Position numbers and translations under genes: made by a program. From a virus (Duplodnaviria; Heunggongvirae; Uroviricota; Caudoviricetes): DNA of 10,819 nt. The stretch lies in the IMG/VR virus record IMGVR_UViG_2778261301_000013. The stretch is one strand, 5' to 3'. Below are positions 7,546 to 10,819 of the stretch, piece by piece. The notes under the pieces are model-generated. The model was not told where the DNA came from. It saw only the letters and a program-made list of their open reading frames with translations, and searched no databases. Numbering within the stretch: the stretch's first letter is position 1; every line of letters starts with the position of its first letter.

Positions 7546-8065
7546 CGATCCACCCGCCCACGTTTTCACCGGCCTTAGCTGCAACATTGGAGGCTTTCGC
7601 GATTTCAGTTTTCACCACATCAAGGTGTGATGGTGAAATGTCCGGATATTTACGCTGTAATGTCAACGGCACACGCACAAGTATCCCCGAAATCTCCTGT
7701 GCCACACGTTGCAGAATGAAGGTAAACAGTTCAGTTTCCAGCACTACTCCGTCTTCACGGGCATTTTTCAGTTCCTGCGCATCTGCCTGCGCTTTTGTGA
7801 GCCTGTAGCGTTCATAGTCAATGGTGCCGGGTTGTAAATCTGACTCCGCTGCCGCACGCAAATCGTCCAGTTCTTTGCGGAGCTTTTCGTTTTCGATATC
7901 AGTTTCCCTCTGCGCATACCACTGAATTGCCATGGCAGTATCAAATACAGATTCAATGCCCTTACTACCTTTGGAGGCGCAAGGGAGTCCCTGAGACTGC
8001 CAGCGTTCAATCGTCCGCGGGTCCACGTTGAAAATTTCGGCAAGCCTCTTTTTATTAACCTTCAT
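7517..8065 (-). CDS. Nu1: Terminase small subunit Nu1-like (182 aa)
   Basis: ORF 7517..8065 with ATG at 8065. Translation ([28 protein letters not shown]...[47 protein letters not shown]) is collinear with lambda gpNu1 as recalled (MEVNKKQLADIFGASIRTIQNWQEQGMP...). First gene downstream of cos, as in lambda. Confidence 0.93.
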
Positions 8066-8241
8066 GAAAACAACCCATTATCAAATACAAGGCCCGACAT
8101 GAAAACGCCAGAAAAAGGCATTTTCGGACACTTTCATGTCGGACCTTTACGGATGAAATATTAAAAAAAACAAAAAGTTATATTCGAGAAGTACCGACAC
8201 GATTTTCCCTGAAAAATTTTCATAAATAGTGAAAAACCGCG
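8066..8241. promoter_or_regulatory. cosB-like terminase-binding region between cosN and Nu1, with three candidate small-subunit binding sites and an A/T-rich putative IHF bend site
   Basis: The first 35 nt on the Nu1 side of cosN (minus-strand CGCGGTTTTTCACTATTTATGAAAATTTT) match the lambda left end as recalled, then the sequence diverges. CCGACA occurs at 8094..8099 and 8194..8199 (same orientation, exactly 100 bp apart) with an inverted copy TGTCGG at 8137..8142, mirroring the lambda R1/R2(inverted)/R3 layout but with a different motif. A/T-rich segment with an A8 run at 8146..8190 lies between the distal and middle sites. Confidence 0.65.
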
Positions 8242-8253
8242 AGGTCGCCGCCC
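8242..8253. other. cosN: 12-nt cohesive-end sequence (minus-strand GGGCGGCGACCT)
   Basis: Plus-strand aggtcgccgccc at 8242..8253 is the exact reverse complement of the lambda 12-nt cohesive end GGGCGGCGACCT, flanked by lambda-like sequence on both sides (minus-strand ...GGTTACG|GGGCGGCGACCT|CGCGG...). Confidence 0.85.
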
Positions 8254-8287
8254 CGTAACCTGTCGGATCGCCGGAAAGGACCCACCA
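8254..8287. other. cosQ-like region (phage right-end sequence adjacent to cosN)
   Basis: Minus-strand GGTGGGTCCTTTCCGGCGATCCGACAGGTTACG closely matches the lambda right-end sequence as recalled (GGGTCCTTTCCGGTGATCCGACAGGTTACG), which contains cosQ. Confidence 0.7.
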
Positions 8288-8378
8288 AAAATGATAATGA
8301 TTGTCAAATACGTTTATCACACTGATATTCAGAATCACTACTGAAAGACTCCCTTTGTGGTGCGCGAGGGATGCGCAT

Positions 8379-8405
8379 AAAAAAACCACCAGCAAATGCC
8401 AGTGG
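8379..8405 (-). terminator. Intrinsic terminator candidate downstream of the 134-aa ORF
   Basis: Minus-strand RNA CCACUGGC-AUUU-GCUGGUGG (8 bp stem including two G-U pairs, 4 nt loop; plus-strand 8386..8405) followed immediately by UUUUUUU (plus-strand A7 at 8379..8385). The stem pairs better in the minus-strand transcript than in the plus-strand one. Located about 60 nt after the stop at 8466. Confidence 0.5.
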
Positions 8406-8465
8406 CTAGAGATATTCATTGCGAATAACCATCACAAAACAACTTAACTCGTGAGGGTAGAAATT

Positions 8466-8870
8466 TTACTCGAGGCCAAATTTCTTCTTTAAATAGGCCT
8501 TCGTTAACTCCAGCCCAACATCTTTGATTGTACTCAAAGGGGCATCGCTCATTGACTTTAATTTCTCAAAAACCGTAGGTTCATTTAATGCCTGGGCGAA
8601 TTCTTGTCCCTGCGCAGATAGTCGCACGTCGGTACCCATATCTAGCATATGGCCACAATGGCGCATGTAGCCCAGTTTAGTTATGTCATCCGTTATTAGA
8701 TCTTTATTACTGATATAACCTTGCTCAATAAGAAGTAGATAATGAAACATCCCTTCATTCGAGCAGATATCGTACCCCGCATTAGCTAAGTCTTTTGTAG
8801 ATATAAAGGGAGTTTTCGCTTTCAAAAATACCTCAAGCATCCCCTTCATGTATTCTAAATTTTTAACCAC
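8466..8870 (-). CDS. Hypothetical protein, 134 aa, in AT-rich accessory block; no family recognised
   Basis: ORF 8466..8870. GTG start at 8870 preceded by a near-perfect SD (minus-strand TAAGGAGGTTTTT-GTG). Translation MVKNLEYMKGMLEVFLKAKTPFISTKDLANAGYDICSNEGMFHYLLLIEQGYISNKDL... The N-terminal half has a helix-turn-helix-like / winged-helix-like pattern, a weak impression only. Own candidate promoter and terminator. Confidence 0.65.
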   Translation of the reverse strand: MVKNLEYMKGMLEVFLKAKTPFISTKDLANAGYDICSNEGMFHYLLLIEQGYISNKDLITDDITKLGYMRHCGHMLDMGTDVRLSAQGQEFAQALNEPTVFEKLKSMSDAPLSTIKDVGLELTKAYLKKKFGLE

Positions 8871-8930
8871 AAAAACCTCCTTAGGATAATTGGAGGTCTA
8901 GAATACCGTTTGCAAGCACGTTGATAAATC

Positions 8931-8939
8931 ATTATCACA
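8931..8939 (-). promoter_or_regulatory. Candidate extended -10 promoter element (minus-strand TGTGATAAT) for the 134-aa ORF
   Basis: TGnGATAAT on the minus strand about 60 nt upstream of the GTG start. No good -35, which is acceptable for extended -10 promoters. Overlaps an imperfect palindrome (8936..8961). Pattern-based only. Confidence 0.3.
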
Positions 8940-9005
8940 GGCACTCAATGAATGCCTGCTGTAATTGCGTACGGTAATGAACGTAAAAAACCGCCCGAGG
9001 TATAT

Positions 9006-9230
9006 TTAGACATTAGATGGCGCTTTGTCAGTATAGACCCGGTACGCCCTGACAAACATCCCGTTACATTCAGAGTCCGCCTTGATATACGCCAATTCGT
9101 AACCCCGATGCTTTAGCTCTTCACGAGCTCTTTTCTCTTCCTTAGCCATGAAGTTAAGATCTTTAATTTCTGAGTAGGTATATGTTCCCACTATAAAATC
9201 TCTGCCTGGCCGTCCATTTATCAGCTCCAT
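9006..9230 (-). CDS. Hypothetical small protein, 74 aa (possible N-terminal extension to 9365 giving 119 aa); no family recognised
   Basis: Six-frame ORF 9006..9365 begins with GTG with no SD. The internal ATG at 9230 is preceded by GGGAGGA (minus-strand TTTTTGGGAGGACAC-ATG), so the 74-aa product MELINGRPGRDFIVGTYTYSEIKDLNFMAKEEKRAREELKHRGYELAYIKADSECNGMFVRAYRVYTDKAPSNV is preferred. The upstream in-frame region resembles sequence found after the stop of the 93-aa gene, so it may be a gene remnant. Confidence 0.5.
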   Translation of the reverse strand: MELINGRPGRDFIVGTYTYSEIKDLNFMAKEEKRAREELKHRGYELAYIKADSECNGMFVRAYRVYTDKAPSNV

Positions 9231-9247
9231 GTGTCCTCCCAAAAAGT

Positions 9248-9323
9248 TGGTAGTCAGAACATACCATGCTAAGCGAGGTGAAAGCACCTTTATCAAGCCC
9301 CCCGCAGATAGACTTTGTAATGG
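9248..9323. repeat. Diverged direct repeat, copy A (partner at 9681..9743)
   Basis: Plus-strand tggtagtcagaacatacc...ttatcaagccccccgcagatagactttgtaatgg aligns with copy B, tggtggcccagaataaattccggtttcattatcaagcccacccgtaaatgggctttgtaatgg. Shared blocks are TGGTNG..CAGAA, TTATCAAGCCC and CTTTGTAATGG; copy A carries an extra roughly 23 bp and one extra C in the C-run (9298..9303). Confidence 0.6.
9258..9266 (-). promoter_or_regulatory. Candidate extended -10 promoter element (minus-strand TGGTATGTT) for the 74-aa ORF
   Basis: TGnTATGTT on the minus strand about 28 nt upstream of the ATG at 9230, leaving room for a short leader containing the GGGAGGA SD. No convincing -35. Pattern-based only. Confidence 0.25.
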
Positions 9324-9680
9324 AGAGTCATTGAGTAGTTCTCGTAATTCTTTGATTTTCCGCACACTCGTGCAGAAGGAGTTCCCCGTCGGGCTACGGT
9401 CATGGTTAATGCGGGAATACAGCGACGATACAGCGCATGATGTGTCAGGCTTGAATACCTTTATCCGTTAAAAGGGATATCAGTTAAGTTACACCGTGTA
9501 GGGTATAAGCCATTGTCGAGACCACTCATTGAATGGCCTCTGCAATAACCGATGTCTTTCCATCAGTCCGCCACCACAAAGAATCTTTTTTGCCTTAAGG
9601 CAGGAGCTTCATCTTTCAGTGGCTGCCAGTGTTATTTCCCCACTTACTGGCTTGGGTTGTTTCGTGGTACTGCCGTTAAC

Positions 9681-9743
9681 TGGTGGCCCAGAATAAATTC
9701 CGGTTTCATTATCAAGCCCACCCGTAAATGGGCTTTGTAATGG
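9681..9743. repeat. Diverged direct repeat, copy B; begins immediately after the stop codon of the 93-aa ORF (minus-strand sense)
   Basis: See copy A. On the minus strand copy B contains a 7 bp inverted repeat AAGCCCA-TTTACGGG-TGGGCTT. Confidence 0.6.
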
Positions 9744-10025
9744 CTACTTCACTTTTGCTTTTGCTTTTGCTTTTGCTTTTGCTTCCGCTCGCTTACGCCG
9801 GCGCTCTTCTTTCCTCTCGGCTTTTGCCATGTCCATGAATGCCTGCATGATCGAGTTCCGCATCATGTAGCTAACAAAGTGATGATTGACACAGCCGTTG
9901 AGGCGCAGCTGCTCGCCAAACTCATCCACCGAGGCCAATGCTTCCATCATGCCCTTCTCGCCTTTCATGAACTCTGAGAAGTCGCGCCCCGCTCTGGAGG
10001 CGCATTCAATGACACGATCACTCAT
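9744..10025 (-). CDS. Hypothetical protein, 93 aa, with a strongly basic C-terminal tail ending in an (Ala-Lys)n repeat
   Basis: ORF 9744..10025. Its ATG at 10025 overlaps the stop of the upstream KilA-N-like ORF as ATGA (10022..10025), suggesting translational coupling. Translation MSDRVIECASRAGRDFSEFMKGEKGMMEALASVDEFGEQLRLNGCVNHHFVSYMMRNSIMQAFMDMAKAERKEERRRKRAEAKAKAKAKAKVK. No family recognised with confidence. Confidence 0.65.
   Translation of the reverse strand: MSDRVIECASRAGRDFSEFMKGEKGMMEALASVDEFGEQLRLNGCVNHHFVSYMMRNSIMQAFMDMAKAERKEERRRKRAEAKAKAKAKAKVK
9753..9782. repeat. Hexanucleotide simple sequence repeat (TTTTGC)5 on the plus strand = (GCAAAA)5 on the coding strand, encoding AKAKAKAKAK
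   Basis: Five perfect tandem hexamers visible at 9753..9782, followed by a degenerate sixth (ttccgc). Lies within the 3' end of the 93-aa ORF, in frame. Confidence 0.9.
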
Positions 10026-10519
10026 CCCGGAAGCCCGGGGATCGTAATCTGCAGCTGGTTAGCCAGGGAGTTAATCTCAGCGACCAACACTGGCTTCGTA
10101 TAGCGCCATGCTGCCAGCCCTTGTCCGCAGAAGCTCGCCATGTCTTTCTTCTGGTCAAACTCATGACATTTCATGTTGAGCTGCGCACTTAAGCTGTTGC
10201 GATGCTGAAGTTCTCCGGTGAAGTAGTCATCGAGGACTTTATAGGCCGCGTACTTGAACCCGGGGTTTAACCAAGCCGCATAATCGTAAGCAACAAACTT
10301 CCCGCCATATGTTCCACCGTGTACACCGCGCTCAGTAAAAACCACAGATTCGTGGTTTTTCTCCAGCTCGGCTAAGAACTCTTTGGTCTGCTTGTTTCGC
10401 AGGTAGTGGTAAGGCGATTCAGATTCACTTTTACCACTGGCTTTCCACATATCAGTGAGGCAGATCATGCCATCTTCACCGATACGAATTGGTTGATTGA
10501 AGAGGGTTAATGATTTCAT
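10022..10519 (-). CDS. KilA-N domain-containing protein (165 aa), putative DNA-binding
   Basis: ORF 10022..10519 with ATG at 10519. Translation MKSLTLFNQPIRIGEDGMICLTDMWKASGKSESESPYHYLRNKQTKEFLAELEKN...GVHGGTYGGKFVAYDYAAWLNPGFKYAAY shows the characteristic KilA-N/APSES-type pattern (hydrophobic run + TD..KA.GK, then TKEFL, then GT....VA.DYA.WL.P.F). Assigned from recalled family features, not a search. Confidence 0.7.
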   Translation of the reverse strand: MKSLTLFNQPIRIGEDGMICLTDMWKASGKSESESPYHYLRNKQTKEFLAELEKNHESVVFTERGVHGGTYGGKFVAYDYAAWLNPGFKYAAYKVLDDYFTGELQHRNSLSAQLNMKCHEFDQKKDMASFCGQGLAAWRYTKPVLVAEINSLANQLQITIPGLPG

Positions 10520-10634
10520 AGCGTGTACCTACTCTTTGAAATGAACCTTTGCCGCACAGGAAACCAGCCCACCGAGGCTCGCCAGCACTAACTGGTATCC
10601 TCAAAGGCCCATTCCAAAGGGGCAGGTTCGGTGT

Positions 10635-10688
10635 AAAAAACATGCGTTGCGGTACGCATTTATTGCAAAAAGCCCCGCATCGCGAGGC
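10635..10688 (-). terminator. Two tandem intrinsic terminator candidates between the Rz stop and the KilA-N-like ORF
   Basis: Distal: minus-strand RNA GCCUCGC-GAU-GCGGGGC (7 bp stem; plus-strand 10672..10688) followed by UUUUU (plus-strand 10667..10671). Proximal: AUGCGU-ACCGCA-ACGCAU (perfect 6 bp stem; plus-strand 10642..10659) followed by G then UUUUUU (plus-strand 10635..10640). Confidence 0.5.
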
Positions 10689-10720
10689 TCATTAAATGGA
10701 CTTTGTGATTTGCAAAAAAA

Positions 10721-10819
10721 TTATTTCAGGCATTGCGTCCTGATGTATTCCTGCAGGTAGTTAACCTGCGCGGTTATCTTGTCGATTCCACTTCGGAGAC
10801 GGTAATAATTGAGTTCAGC
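10721..10819 (-). CDS. Rz: Rz-like i-spanin, C-terminal 32 codons only (gene runs off the window end)
   Basis: Minus-strand frame ending at TAA (10723..10721) translates ...AELNYYRLRSGIDKITAQVNYLQEYIRTQCLK*, resembling the lambda Rz C-terminus as recalled (...RDYFTLRERLITMQKQLEGTQKYINEQCR*). Position upstream of cos on the late strand fits. Short partial sequence, so moderate confidence. Confidence 0.55.
   Translation of the reverse strand, partial: AELNYYRLRSGIDKITAQVNYLQEYIRTQCLK
10774..10818 (-). CDS. Rz1: Possible Rz1-like o-spanin C-terminus embedded in the +1 frame of Rz (last 14 codons)
   Basis: Alternate minus-strand frame reads ...LNSIITVSEVESTR* with its stop inside Rz, reminiscent of the lambda Rz1 C-terminus (...PLNGIISPSERG*) and of the embedded Rz1 arrangement. 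Very short; weak evidence. Confidence 0.3.
   Translation of the reverse strand: MNSIITVSEVESTR

What the first reader, a model, noticed from the sequence alone, without database searches (positions are those of the whole stretch)
8466..9365. AT-rich two-gene module (74-aa and 134-aa proteins) with its own candidate promoters, strong SDs and terminator
Both ORFs have strong SD motifs (GGGAGGA-ATG at 9230; AAGGAGG-5nt-GTG at 8870). Each has a candidate extended -10 element upstream (TGGTATGTT at 9258..9266; TGTGATAAT at 8931..8939), and a terminator follows at 8379..8405. This looks like an autonomously expressed cassette that could be active in the lysogen rather than only on late read-through. 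A small protein followed by a slightly larger one with an HTH-like N-terminus fits a toxin-antitoxin, superinfection-exclusion or small defence/anti-defence pair, but I cannot place either protein in a known family. Function is purely hypothetical.
Basis: inference. Interest (0 to 1): 0.6.

Follow-up and report, generated by a model that had tools for sequence, protein, structure and literature searches.

The report
Two stacked prophage cargo gene cassettes
The two small genes are real, but they are two unrelated single-gene cargo cassettes lying side by side in the accessory slot of a lambda-like E. coli prophage, not a toxin-antitoxin or defence pair; each follows a copy of a widespread hairpin element I could not find described, and that element is the most interesting thing here.

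Summary
The window is a lambdoid E. coli prophage read on the minus strand: KilA-N gene, 93-aa gene, 74-aa gene, 134-aa gene, terminator, cos, Nu1, gpA, portal.

The 74-aa ORF is a real gene (dN/dS about 0.1) that RefSeq does not annotate. It belongs to a tiny orphan family.

The 134-aa protein is a divergent DUF2513 (PF10711) winged-helix protein (hhalign 99.6%, AF2 pLDDT 95.6).

They are not a co-evolving pair. Across 62 related loci they occur together only in near-identical (at least 98.5%) copies of this one module. Every more distant homologue of either gene lacks the other. DUF2513 genes are normally single genes between the lysis cassette and the small terminase.

The window holds four copies, all in late-operon sense, one ahead of each cassette. 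The family occurs in hundreds of phage contigs, and one of its two main sequence types is in about 25% of complete E. coli genomes. It sits in the lysis-to-packaging gap (its only site in two whole phage genomes scanned), shows strand-specific covariation, and marks mosaic breakpoints.

The functions of both proteins and of the hairpin remain untested.

The parts
9703..9746 (-). Hairpin copy 1 (E2 type). It starts on the stop codon of the upstream 93-aa gene.
   Evidence: Covariance model R1, 53.8 bits, E 1e-12.
9507..9551 (-). Hairpin copy 2, a third sequence variant in which all model pairs are standard.
   Evidence: R1, 31.8 bits, E 9e-7. Homology blocks shared with thousands of E. coli genomes end at about 9527, in the middle of this hairpin.
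9284..9326 (-). Hairpin copy 3, a degenerate E2 type, 53 nt upstream of the 74-aa start codon. It marks the 5' edge of the mobile unit.
   Evidence: R1, 31.8 bits. Identity with the O104:H4 prophage and with L006/L009 begins at CCATTACAAAG. Homologues of the 74-aa gene in L006 and L061 also have a hairpin about 55-60 nt upstream.
9258..9266 (-).
   Evidence: Present, but it reads TGGTAATGT in the homologous L006/L009 leaders and was not found by the promoter scan. Weak candidate.
9006..9230 (-). Gene for the 74-aa protein (phrog_6100), with SD GGGAGGA at 9234-9240.
   Evidence: PHROG E 5e-55. dN/dS about 0.1. Five family representatives among 1.84 billion proteins. AF2 pLDDT 78, beta-beta-alpha-beta-beta. 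No informative fold match. Unannotated in all 36 RefSeq genomes that carry it.
8926..8970 (-). Hairpin copy 4 (E1 type). It lies 55 nt upstream of the 134-aa start codon.
   Evidence: R1, 56.5 bits, E 2e-13. Inner 10-bp stem, -17.3 kcal/mol, z -3.7. The same element precedes DUF2513 genes that are only about 30% identical and dozens of unrelated genes.
8873..8899 (-). Leader hairpin that pairs an anti-SD (AGACCUCC) with the SD (GGAGGUUU) of the 134-aa gene.
   Evidence: Predicted 8-bp stem. Pairing is kept through G.U changes in L031 (alignment). Function untested.
8466..8870 (-). Gene for the 134-aa divergent DUF2513 winged-helix protein (WP_000240372.1, phrog_585), GTG start, SD AAGGAGG at 8876-8882.
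8377..8407 (-). Intrinsic terminator that closes the 134-aa cassette, just before the cos region.
   Evidence: Conserved with the gene in L030 and L031, while sequence beyond it diverges.

Best explanation
The region holds two independent single-gene cargo cassettes stacked head to tail in the accessory slot of the late operon of a lambdoid E. coli prophage, between the lysis genes and cos/Nu1.

Cassette layout. Each cassette consists of a conserved boundary hairpin of about 40 nt, a leader of about 55 nt with a strong ribosome-binding site, and one ORF. The last cassette ends in an intrinsic terminator.
- Cassette 1 encodes a 74-aa orphan alpha/beta protein.
- Cassette 2 encodes a stand-alone DUF2513 winged-helix protein.

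Shown here. The genes are real. They do not co-evolve. Each occurs without the other in the same slot of other phages. The hairpins sit in the intergenic positions around the cassettes. Mosaic breakpoints between phages fall at or inside the hairpins.

Inferred.
- Both genes are transcribed with the Q-antiterminated late operon. They are co-oriented and lie inside that transcription unit, by analogy with lambda and phi80.
- The hairpin acts in the sense RNA, in processing or stabilisation. Its sequence, which is near-identical between phages, also supplies the short homology at which cassettes are swapped.
- The GATAAT in its 3' arm may additionally give low-level expression in the lysogen.
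- The proteins most likely act singly in phage-host or phage-phage conflict, as other cargo of this slot does. The DUF2513 protein would act by binding nucleic acid or a partner protein through its winged helix.
For: Context: the Nu1, gpA, portal and KilA-N assignments and the RefSeq annotation of identical prophages.

The genes are real.

No pairing:
- Both genes are in the same 36 of 5426 E. coli genomes, all at least 99% identical, so this is one lineage.
- tblastn over 62 loci finds them together only at 98.5% identity or more. The 96%, 86% and 45-66% homologues of the 134-aa protein lack the 74-aa gene. The 83% and 69% homologues of the 74-aa protein lack DUF2513 (contexts).
- Small genes next to other DUF2513 genes are unrelated to the 74-aa protein.
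- In 8 of 20 representative loci the DUF2513 gene directly follows the Rz/Rz1 spanin genes.
- A DUF2513 gene stands alone between dprA and a Sua5/YciO/YrdC-family gene in an Oceanobacter chromosome.

Slot: DUF2513 precedes at least four small-terminase types, and its neighbours are variable cargo including Acb2/Tad1-hairpin, DUF2560 and MT-A70 genes.

Hairpin:
- Four copies in the window, all in late-operon sense.
- It begins 0-3 nt after the upstream stop codon in most copies.
- It is followed by 50 unrelated ORF clusters among 71.
- It is found only in the lysis-to-terminase gap of two whole phage genomes.
- 92.9% of cells are paired against 35-44% when the partners are slid, and 10 of 17 pairs show double changes.
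- G.U outnumbers A.C 118 to 15, so the pairing is strand-specific.

Breakpoints at hairpins.
Against: - No expression data were available, so late-operon transcription, an RNA role for the hairpin and lysogenic expression are all inferred.
- The five innermost pairs of the hairpin's basal stem are almost invariant in sequence. Pairing alone does not explain that, so a protein-binding or -10 function is possible.
- Most covariation is between two sequence types, E1 and E2, and so represents few independent events.
- Variants with a flipped centre exist. These fit a DNA palindrome as well as an RNA hairpin.
- E1 lies directly upstream of DUF2513 genes from very distant subfamilies, which leaves room for a specific DUF2513-hairpin relationship.
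- The DUF2513 family is acidic (median pI 5.2) and its 'recognition' helix is hydrophobic, so DNA binding is not assured.
- Co-residence of the two genes in one successful lineage cannot exclude a recently evolved cooperation.
Confidence: 0.75

Rival explanations
1. The two genes form a functional pair, such as toxin-antitoxin or a defence gene with a self-immunity gene like phi80 Tai/Ati. The pair was assembled recently in this lineage.
For: They are adjacent and co-oriented, and they move as one block into two different upstream contexts. The same slot in phi80 holds a defence and counter-defence pair whose counter-defence protein is 76 aa (PMC11364771).
Against: - The pairing is absent from every diverged relative.
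- A 135-nt spacer with a boundary hairpin separates the genes.
- IS100 lies between them in CT282.
- There is no similarity to TaiEcA or AtiEcA.
- There are no TA or defence model hits.
- DUF2513 is a solitary gene elsewhere.
Confidence: 0.08
2. An anti-defence operon of the acr-aca type. A variable small effector gene (here the 74-aa protein) lies upstream of a conserved winged-helix regulator (DUF2513). The regulator binds the palindromic element overlapping TGTGATAAT as double-stranded DNA and controls a real promoter there.
For: - Several DUF2513 genes have unrelated small ORFs just upstream, of 50, 58, 64 and 71 aa.
- The E1 palindrome abuts the start of DUF2513 genes that are only about 30% identical.
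- Winged-helix dimers commonly bind palindromes.
- The basal stem is constrained in sequence and includes a GATAAT.
- Flipped-centre variants exist.
Against: - Only 3 of 71 genes downstream of E1 are DUF2513.
- phi80 has the element, but no DUF2513 was found in it.
- Many DUF2513 genes follow Rz directly, with no small gene and no hairpin.
- In the most frequent downstream genes (HNH) the start codon is only 17-23 nt after GATAAT. A transcript starting there would lose its SD.
- The G.U to A.C asymmetry points to a single-strand fold.
- The family is acidic.
Confidence: 0.12
3. The region is decaying filler. One or both ORFs are non-functional remnants, and the motifs are chance.
For: RefSeq does not annotate the 74-aa ORF. 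Hairpin copy 3 ahead of it is degenerate. The promoter-like motifs are not more frequent than chance.
Against: Strong purifying selection on the 74-aa ORF. Full-length conservation and a confident fold for the 134-aa protein. Conserved SD, start codon and terminator.
Confidence: 0.03

Closest known systems
Morons / accessory cargo of lambdoid late operons (HK97/HK022 morons as defined by Hendrix and colleagues; lambda bor; the phi80 orf62-66 region)
   Same: Extra genes with deviant G+C sit between the lysis genes and the packaging genes. They are absent from related phages that keep the flanks. A terminator lies at the 3' end, and the genes are co-oriented with the late operon.
   Different: Classical morons are defined by their own sigma-70 promoter plus a terminator. 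Here the only conserved 'promoter' motif is one arm of a structured hairpin that recurs in the gaps between cassettes, and the first cassette has no terminator.
DUF2513 (Pfam PF10711), an uncharacterised winged-helix family
   Same: Full-length profile-profile match (99.6%), the same length, the invariant FH...L...G...RLT..G..F signature, and the same genomic slot.
   Different: The window protein itself gives no Pfam hit at E<=1. Its closest relatives score 16-19 bits against a cut-off of 29.6. It therefore belongs to a divergent enterobacterial subfamily. No member has a known function or a solved structure.
Tai/Ati tail-assembly-inhibition defence and counter-defence of phage phi80 (PMC11364771)
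   Same: Same slot upstream of the packaging module. The phi80 locus carries one copy of the same hairpin, between rha and taiEcA. Ati is a protein of about 75 aa encoded in late-operon sense.
   Different: No sequence similarity to either protein. tai is transcribed divergently, whereas both genes here are in late-operon sense. No evidence of interaction.
Intercistronic RNA hairpins: RNase III sites of T7 polycistronic mRNAs and REP stabiliser stem-loops (from my own knowledge)
   Same: A stable stem-loop with a small internal loop, placed between cistrons of a long phage mRNA. It is strand-specific, and the apical stem is constrained in shape rather than in sequence.
   Different: No sequence relationship, no Rfam family, and no cleavage or stability data. 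The basal stem is invariant in sequence, and the element is confined to one slot of the genome.
Integron attC cassette boundaries (from my own knowledge)
   Same: Single promoterless-looking ORFs, each bounded by an imperfect palindrome with conserved ends and a variable centre. The element is folded on one strand and lies at cassette junctions where mosaic breakpoints fall.
   Different: Much shorter (about 40 nt). No GTTRRRY core. No integron integrase is encoded in the window. Exchange, if it happens at these sites, is more likely homologous recombination than site-specific recombination.

Membership tests
DUF2513 (PF10711) | Match to the Pfam HMM at or above the gathering score (29.6 bits) | tested here: not met
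   No hit at E<=1 for the window protein. Relatives at 49-66% identity score 15.8-19.3 bits.
DUF2513 (PF10711) | Full-length homology to proteins that do pass the Pfam threshold | tested here: met
   A profile search retrieves PF10711-annotated proteins at E 1e-39 to 1e-28 with 93% coverage. hhalign of A1 against A10 gives 99.6%, E 5.8e-24, 128 columns.
DUF2513 (PF10711) | Winged helix-turn-helix fold of about 95 residues followed by C-terminal helices | tested here: met
Type II toxin-antitoxin pair | The two genes co-occur across diverged homologues | tested here: not met
   Together only at 98.5% identity or more. Apart in all 30 or more diverged loci.
Type II toxin-antitoxin pair | Tightly coupled bicistronic operon (overlap or a gap of a few nt) | tested here: not met
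   135-nt gap containing a boundary hairpin and a separate SD. IS100 lies between the genes in CT282.
Type II toxin-antitoxin pair | A recognisable toxin or antitoxin domain | tested here: not met
   No hits in Pfam, NCBIfam or PADLOC. Fold searches give a generic winged helix and a generic alpha/beta fold.
Tai/Ati (phi80) | Sequence similarity to TaiEcA (orf63) or AtiEcA (orf64) | tested here: not met
   BLASTP finds no alignment at E<=100 for either comparison.
Tai/Ati (phi80) | Defence gene divergent to the late operon (non-contiguous operon) | tested here: not met
   Both genes are on the late-operon strand.
Moron (Hendrix definition) | Extra gene(s) between flanks that are adjacent, or differently filled, in related phages, with deviant composition | tested here: met
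   The flanking block 9351-9500 is in 3833 of 5426 genomes but the genes are in 36. mEp460 and PhiR70_1 carry other genes in this position. G+C is 0.39-0.43 against about 0.51.
Moron (Hendrix definition) | Own sigma-70 promoter | tested here: inconclusive
   TGTGATAAT has no -35, and such motifs are not enriched. It is conserved only as a hairpin arm. There are no transcript data.
Moron (Hendrix definition) | Own factor-independent terminator | tested here: met
   Met for the 134-aa cassette. The 74-aa cassette has none (-5.4 kcal/mol, z -1.4).
acr-aca anti-CRISPR operon | The HTH protein belongs to a described Aca family and represses a promoter through inverted repeats | not tested
   No Aca profile library was available. 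The palindrome upstream is not specific to DUF2513 genes.
Integron cassette / attC | R''/R' core sites (GTTRRRY) and an adjacent IntI integrase | tested here: not met
   The element's ends are CATTA...TAATG. No recombinase ORF is in the window.
Any Rfam RNA family | Covariance-model match | tested here: not met
   cmscan of 7900-10819 at E<=1 gives only one chance-level snoRNA hit elsewhere in the stretch.

The most novel reading that the evidence does not exclude
The hairpin (basal stem GCAUUA/UAAUGC, a 2x2 CA/GA internal loop, and a variable 9-10-bp apical stem) may be a dedicated 'punctuation' element of a cargo-cassette array in the late operons of enterobacterial temperate phages. In this reading it would do two things. 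It would define the RNA ends or stability of each cassette. It would also provide the roughly 40-nt portable homology, or a protein-recognised site, through which single-gene cassettes such as the 74-aa and DUF2513 genes are swapped between phages. That would make it a recombinase-light analogue of an integron array. The DUF2513 protein and the 74-aa protein would then be two of many interchangeable conflict genes carried by this system.
Probability: 0.35. Interest if true: 0.75.

Novelty: new variant of a known kind. Interest (0 to 1): 0.5.

Why it matters
The pair itself is ordinary. It consists of one more DUF2513 gene and one orphan gene in a prophage accessory slot, so it should not be pursued as a toxin-antitoxin or two-gene defence system.

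The organisation of that slot is worth pursuing. A conserved, strand-specific hairpin recurs in the gaps between cargo cassettes and coincides with recombination joints. One of its two main sequence types is in about a quarter of complete E. coli genomes. I found no Rfam family, no GenBank or RefSeq annotation among the matches listed, and no paper containing its sequence.

If the hairpin governs cassette exchange or expression, it would explain how lambdoid phages shuffle defence and counter-defence cargo upstream of the packaging genes. It would also give a simple sequence handle, the covariance model, for harvesting such cargo genes systematically. Separately, the analysis flags a real 74-aa gene that RefSeq does not annotate.

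Tried and rejected
- Pfam, NCBIfam and PADLOC on both proteins gave nothing usable.
- A PDB sequence search with the DUF2513 profile gave only a marginal match to the MarR wing.
- An exhaustive HMMER search for the 74-aa family found 5 representatives. One is a repeat-protein hit that I judge spurious.
- The search for related loci with the 71-sequence alignment failed. The genome-contig scan returned only 3 loci.
- tblastn of the 74-aa protein against GenBank phages gave no match.
- Tai/Ati homology was rejected.
- A Fur-box reading of GATAATGAT... was rejected by eye. Only 9 of 19 positions match, and the motif is explained by the hairpin.
- The K-12 prophages DLP12 and Qin have no hairpin copy, so K-12 transcription-start data cannot be used.
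- Literature searches for DUF2513, PF10711, the PHROG ids, the protein accession and four substrings of each hairpin type returned nothing relevant.
- A Nature 2026 paper on a prophage abortive-infection protein concerns a HEPN protein in a different slot.
- The intergenic stretch after the 74-aa gene was tested as a terminator and is not one.
Full report
CONTEXT. The window is a lambda-like E. coli prophage whose late genes run on the minus strand.
- Gene order is: KilA-N/ORF11CD3 protein (10519-10022), a 93-aa protein (10025-9744), the two ORFs of the finding, the cos region, Nu1 (8065-7517), gpA, W, portal, protease, and the decoration and capsid proteins.
- Prophages more than 99% identical over the locus occur in RefSeq genomes. 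There the upstream genes are the lysis cassette, and the 134-aa ORF is WP_000240372.1, 'hypothetical protein'.
- The finding therefore lies in the gap between the lysis genes and the packaging genes.

OBSERVATION.
- The terminator at 8407-8384 is a 10-bp G+C-rich stem followed by seven U (-14.6 kcal/mol, z -2.9).
- G+C falls to 0.39-0.43, against about 0.51 in the terminase genes.
- The promoter motifs are weaker evidence. TGNTATAAT-like strings are no more frequent than in shuffled sequence (5 against 5.7). Neither motif has a -35. TGGTATGTT is not kept in homologous leaders.

THE 74-aa GENE.
- It matches phrog_6100 over exactly 74 residues.
- Homologues at 83% identity differ at 66% of synonymous sites but only 14% of non-synonymous sites, giving dN/dS of about 0.1. 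It is therefore a real gene.
- None of the 36 RefSeq genomes that carry it annotates it.
- The 119-aa extension from GTG 9365 is not supported.
- The family is tiny: 5 proteins in the word-indexed search, and 5 representatives among 1.84 billion sequences.
- The AF2 model is of moderate confidence (pLDDT 78) with a beta-beta-alpha-beta-beta layout.

THE 134-aa GENE.
- Pfam gives no hit for the window protein itself.
- Its relatives score just below threshold on DUF2513 across their full length.
- A Klebsiella phage homologue (30% identity) passes the threshold at E 2e-12.
- A profile search recovers 283 proteins, many of them annotated PF10711.
- Profile-profile comparison with PF10711-positive proteins gives 99.6%, E 6e-24.
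- AF2 is confident (pLDDT 95.6). The fold is a winged helix like TubR, MarR, PadR and HxlR, followed by three C-terminal helices.
- The family is acidic (median pI 5.2). No member has a solved structure or a published function.

PAIR OR NOT.
- In E. coli both genes occur in the same 36 of 5426 complete genomes, always at 99% identity or more. That is one recent lineage and says nothing about functional coupling.
- I collected 62 loci that carry a homologue of either gene, from IMG/VR, GTDB genomes, GenBank phages and metagenomes. The two genes are together only when both are at least 98.5% identical to the window.
- The Citrobacter (96%) and L031 (86%) homologues, and all homologues at 45-66%, of the 134-aa protein lack the 74-aa gene. 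The 83% and 69% homologues of the 74-aa protein lack DUF2513 (contexts).
- Small ORFs next to other DUF2513 genes are unrelated to the 74-aa protein.
- In 8 of 20 representative loci the DUF2513 gene directly follows the spanin genes.
- A DUF2513 gene also stands alone in an Oceanobacter chromosome.
- In strain CT282 an IS100 element separates the two genes.
- Only the slot is constant. It lies between the lysis genes and small terminases of at least four types, next to variable cargo such as Acb2/Tad1-hairpin, DUF2560, GvpU-like, MT-A70 and ParB-like genes.

THE HAIRPIN.
- Discovery. When I lined up the sequences upstream of distant DUF2513 genes, a 37-nt stretch stood out: CATTACAGCAGGCATTC-ACT-GAGTGCCTGTGATAATG. 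It is far better conserved than the proteins.
- Occurrence. It is in 47 GenBank phages, including phi80, ZF40, mEp390, phiP27, ST64B and Fels-1.
- Position. It starts within a few nt of the stop codon of diverse upstream genes. It precedes 50 unrelated ORF clusters among 71, including HNH endonucleases, small terminases, lipoproteins and membrane proteins.
- Second type. The leader of the 74-aa gene begins with a second type, consensus CCATTACAAAGCTCATCTGCGGGTGGGCTTGATAATGG, found in 109 contigs ahead of 38 ORF clusters.
- Shape. Both types fold into the same shape: a basal stem GCAUUA/UAAUGC, a 2x2 CA/GA internal loop, a 9-10-bp apical stem of unrelated sequence, and a 3-4-nt loop. The energy is about -25 kcal/mol, with z of -5.8 for the E1 consensus.
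- Covariation. On a joint alignment 92.9% of cells pair, against 35-44% when the partners are slid, and 10 of 17 pairs carry changes on both sides. Within type 1, one pair reads G.U 26, G-C 20, A-U 12. G.U outnumbers A.C 118 to 15, so the fold is specific to the late-operon sense strand.
- Copies in the window. Covariance model R1 finds four copies, all on the minus strand: 9746-9703, 9551-9507, 9326-9284 and 8970-8926.
- Copies elsewhere. There are up to four in the same gap of Klebsiella prophages, in successive gaps between cargo genes. phi80 has exactly one and a 50-kb Klebsiella phage has two, all in this gap and nowhere else in those genomes.
- Prevalence in E. coli. The two types occur in 404 and 1356 of 5426 E. 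coli genomes.
- Breakpoints. Homology breakpoints fall at or inside hairpins: at copy 3 against O104:H4, at or within copy 4 against L030 and L031, and at copies 1 and 2 against thousands of genomes.
- Prior description. Rfam has no such family, and no paper in the library contains the sequence.

MECHANISM. Shown:
- There are two real genes, and they are evolutionarily independent.
- Each lies downstream of a boundary hairpin.
- The second gene ends in a terminator that is conserved with it.
- Mosaic joints coincide with the hairpins.

Inferred from lambda and phi80 biology (PMC11364771): both genes lie inside the Q-antiterminated late transcription unit and are made late in infection.

Inferred for the hairpin: it works in the sense RNA.
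- The G.U bias supports this.
- In the commonest downstream genes the start codon is only 17-23 nt after GATAAT. A transcript starting at that '-10' would lack its Shine-Dalgarno site.
- Plausible roles are a processing site or an exonuclease barrier.

A further role in cassette exchange is possible. The element is near-identical between phages and spans about 40 nt, which is in the range used by Red/RecT-type recombinases (my own knowledge). This would make it the natural crossover point for cassette exchange.

The innermost basal-stem pairs are invariant in sequence. This leaves room for a protein-binding or weak promoter function, so expression in the lysogen is not excluded.

The protein functions are unknown. 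I think the most likely role is a single-gene function in phage-host or phage-phage conflict, as for other cargo of this slot.

COMPARISON WITH KNOWN SYSTEMS.
- The locus fits the moron or accessory-cargo concept, apart from the promoter criterion.
- The larger protein is a divergent DUF2513.
- The pair is not a TA system. Co-occurrence, coupling and domain criteria were all tested and not met.
- It is not Tai/Ati.
- The hairpin resembles T7 RNase III sites, REP stabilisers and integron attC sites in logic. It shares no defining sequence feature with any of them.

VERDICT.
- The 'pair' interpretation is not supported.
- The genes themselves are ordinary cargo of unknown function.
- The recurring hairpin between cassettes is the feature that deserves follow-up.

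Noticed in passing
window 9746-9703, 9551-9507, 9326-9284, 8970-8926 (minus strand); also L012, L063-L067, L072 (phi80 44298-44337) and more than 200 IMG/VR loci: A family of conserved hairpins of about 40 nt lies between cargo genes in the lysis-to-packaging gap of enterobacterial temperate phages. It shows strand-specific covariation, sits at mosaic breakpoints, and is absent from Rfam, from the annotations of the matches listed, and from the searched literature.
   Followed up: yes
window 9351-9527: A non-coding block of about 177 nt between hairpin copies 2 and 3 is present at 90-95% identity in about 3890 of 5426 complete E. coli genomes, with up to 7 places per genome. Among the matches listed it is mostly unannotated. 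It ends in the middle of hairpin copy 2. Its function is unknown.
   Followed up: partly
window 8873-8899 (minus strand): The leader of the 134-aa gene can fold so that an anti-SD (AGACCUCC) pairs with the Shine-Dalgarno sequence. The pairing is kept through C-to-U (G.U) changes in L031. This could be translational control.
   Followed up: partly
window 9006-9230 (minus strand): The 74-aa gene is under purifying selection, yet it is not annotated in any of the 36 RefSeq E. coli genomes that carry it.
   Followed up: yes
protein P0017 and P0127: Two database proteins fuse unrelated N-termini (one resembles a Cro/YdaS-type HTH) to the C-terminal 30-36 residues of the 74-aa protein. This suggests recombination joints inside the gene.
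   Followed up: no
L297 (E. coli CT282, NZ_CP095798.1 3275051-3276852): An IS100 (IS21 family) element is inserted between the 74-aa and 134-aa genes. RefSeq annotates a shortened 124-aa version of the DUF2513 gene there.
   Followed up: partly
window 10022-10519 (minus strand): The KilA-N + ORF11CD3 protein upstream gives a weak match to the PADLOC candidate defence model PDC-S22 (E 1.2e-8, two short stretches).
   Followed up: no
window 9744-10025 (minus strand): The 93-aa protein (phrog_875) has a Lys/Ala/Glu-rich C-terminal tail and no known function. Its stop codon is the first base triplet of hairpin copy 1.
   Followed up: no
L065 1499-1783 and L067 1747-2040 (Klebsiella prophages): Genes with the Acb2/Tad1 hairpin domain (anti-CBASS/anti-Thoeris sponge family) lie in the same lysis-to-terminase gap, a few cassettes upstream of DUF2513. 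This shows that the slot carries counter-defence cargo.
   Followed up: no
window 8957-8965 (plus strand): Because the element is palindromic, the opposite strand also carries an extended -10-like TGCTGTAAT facing away from the 134-aa gene. An antisense transcript cannot be excluded.
   Followed up: no
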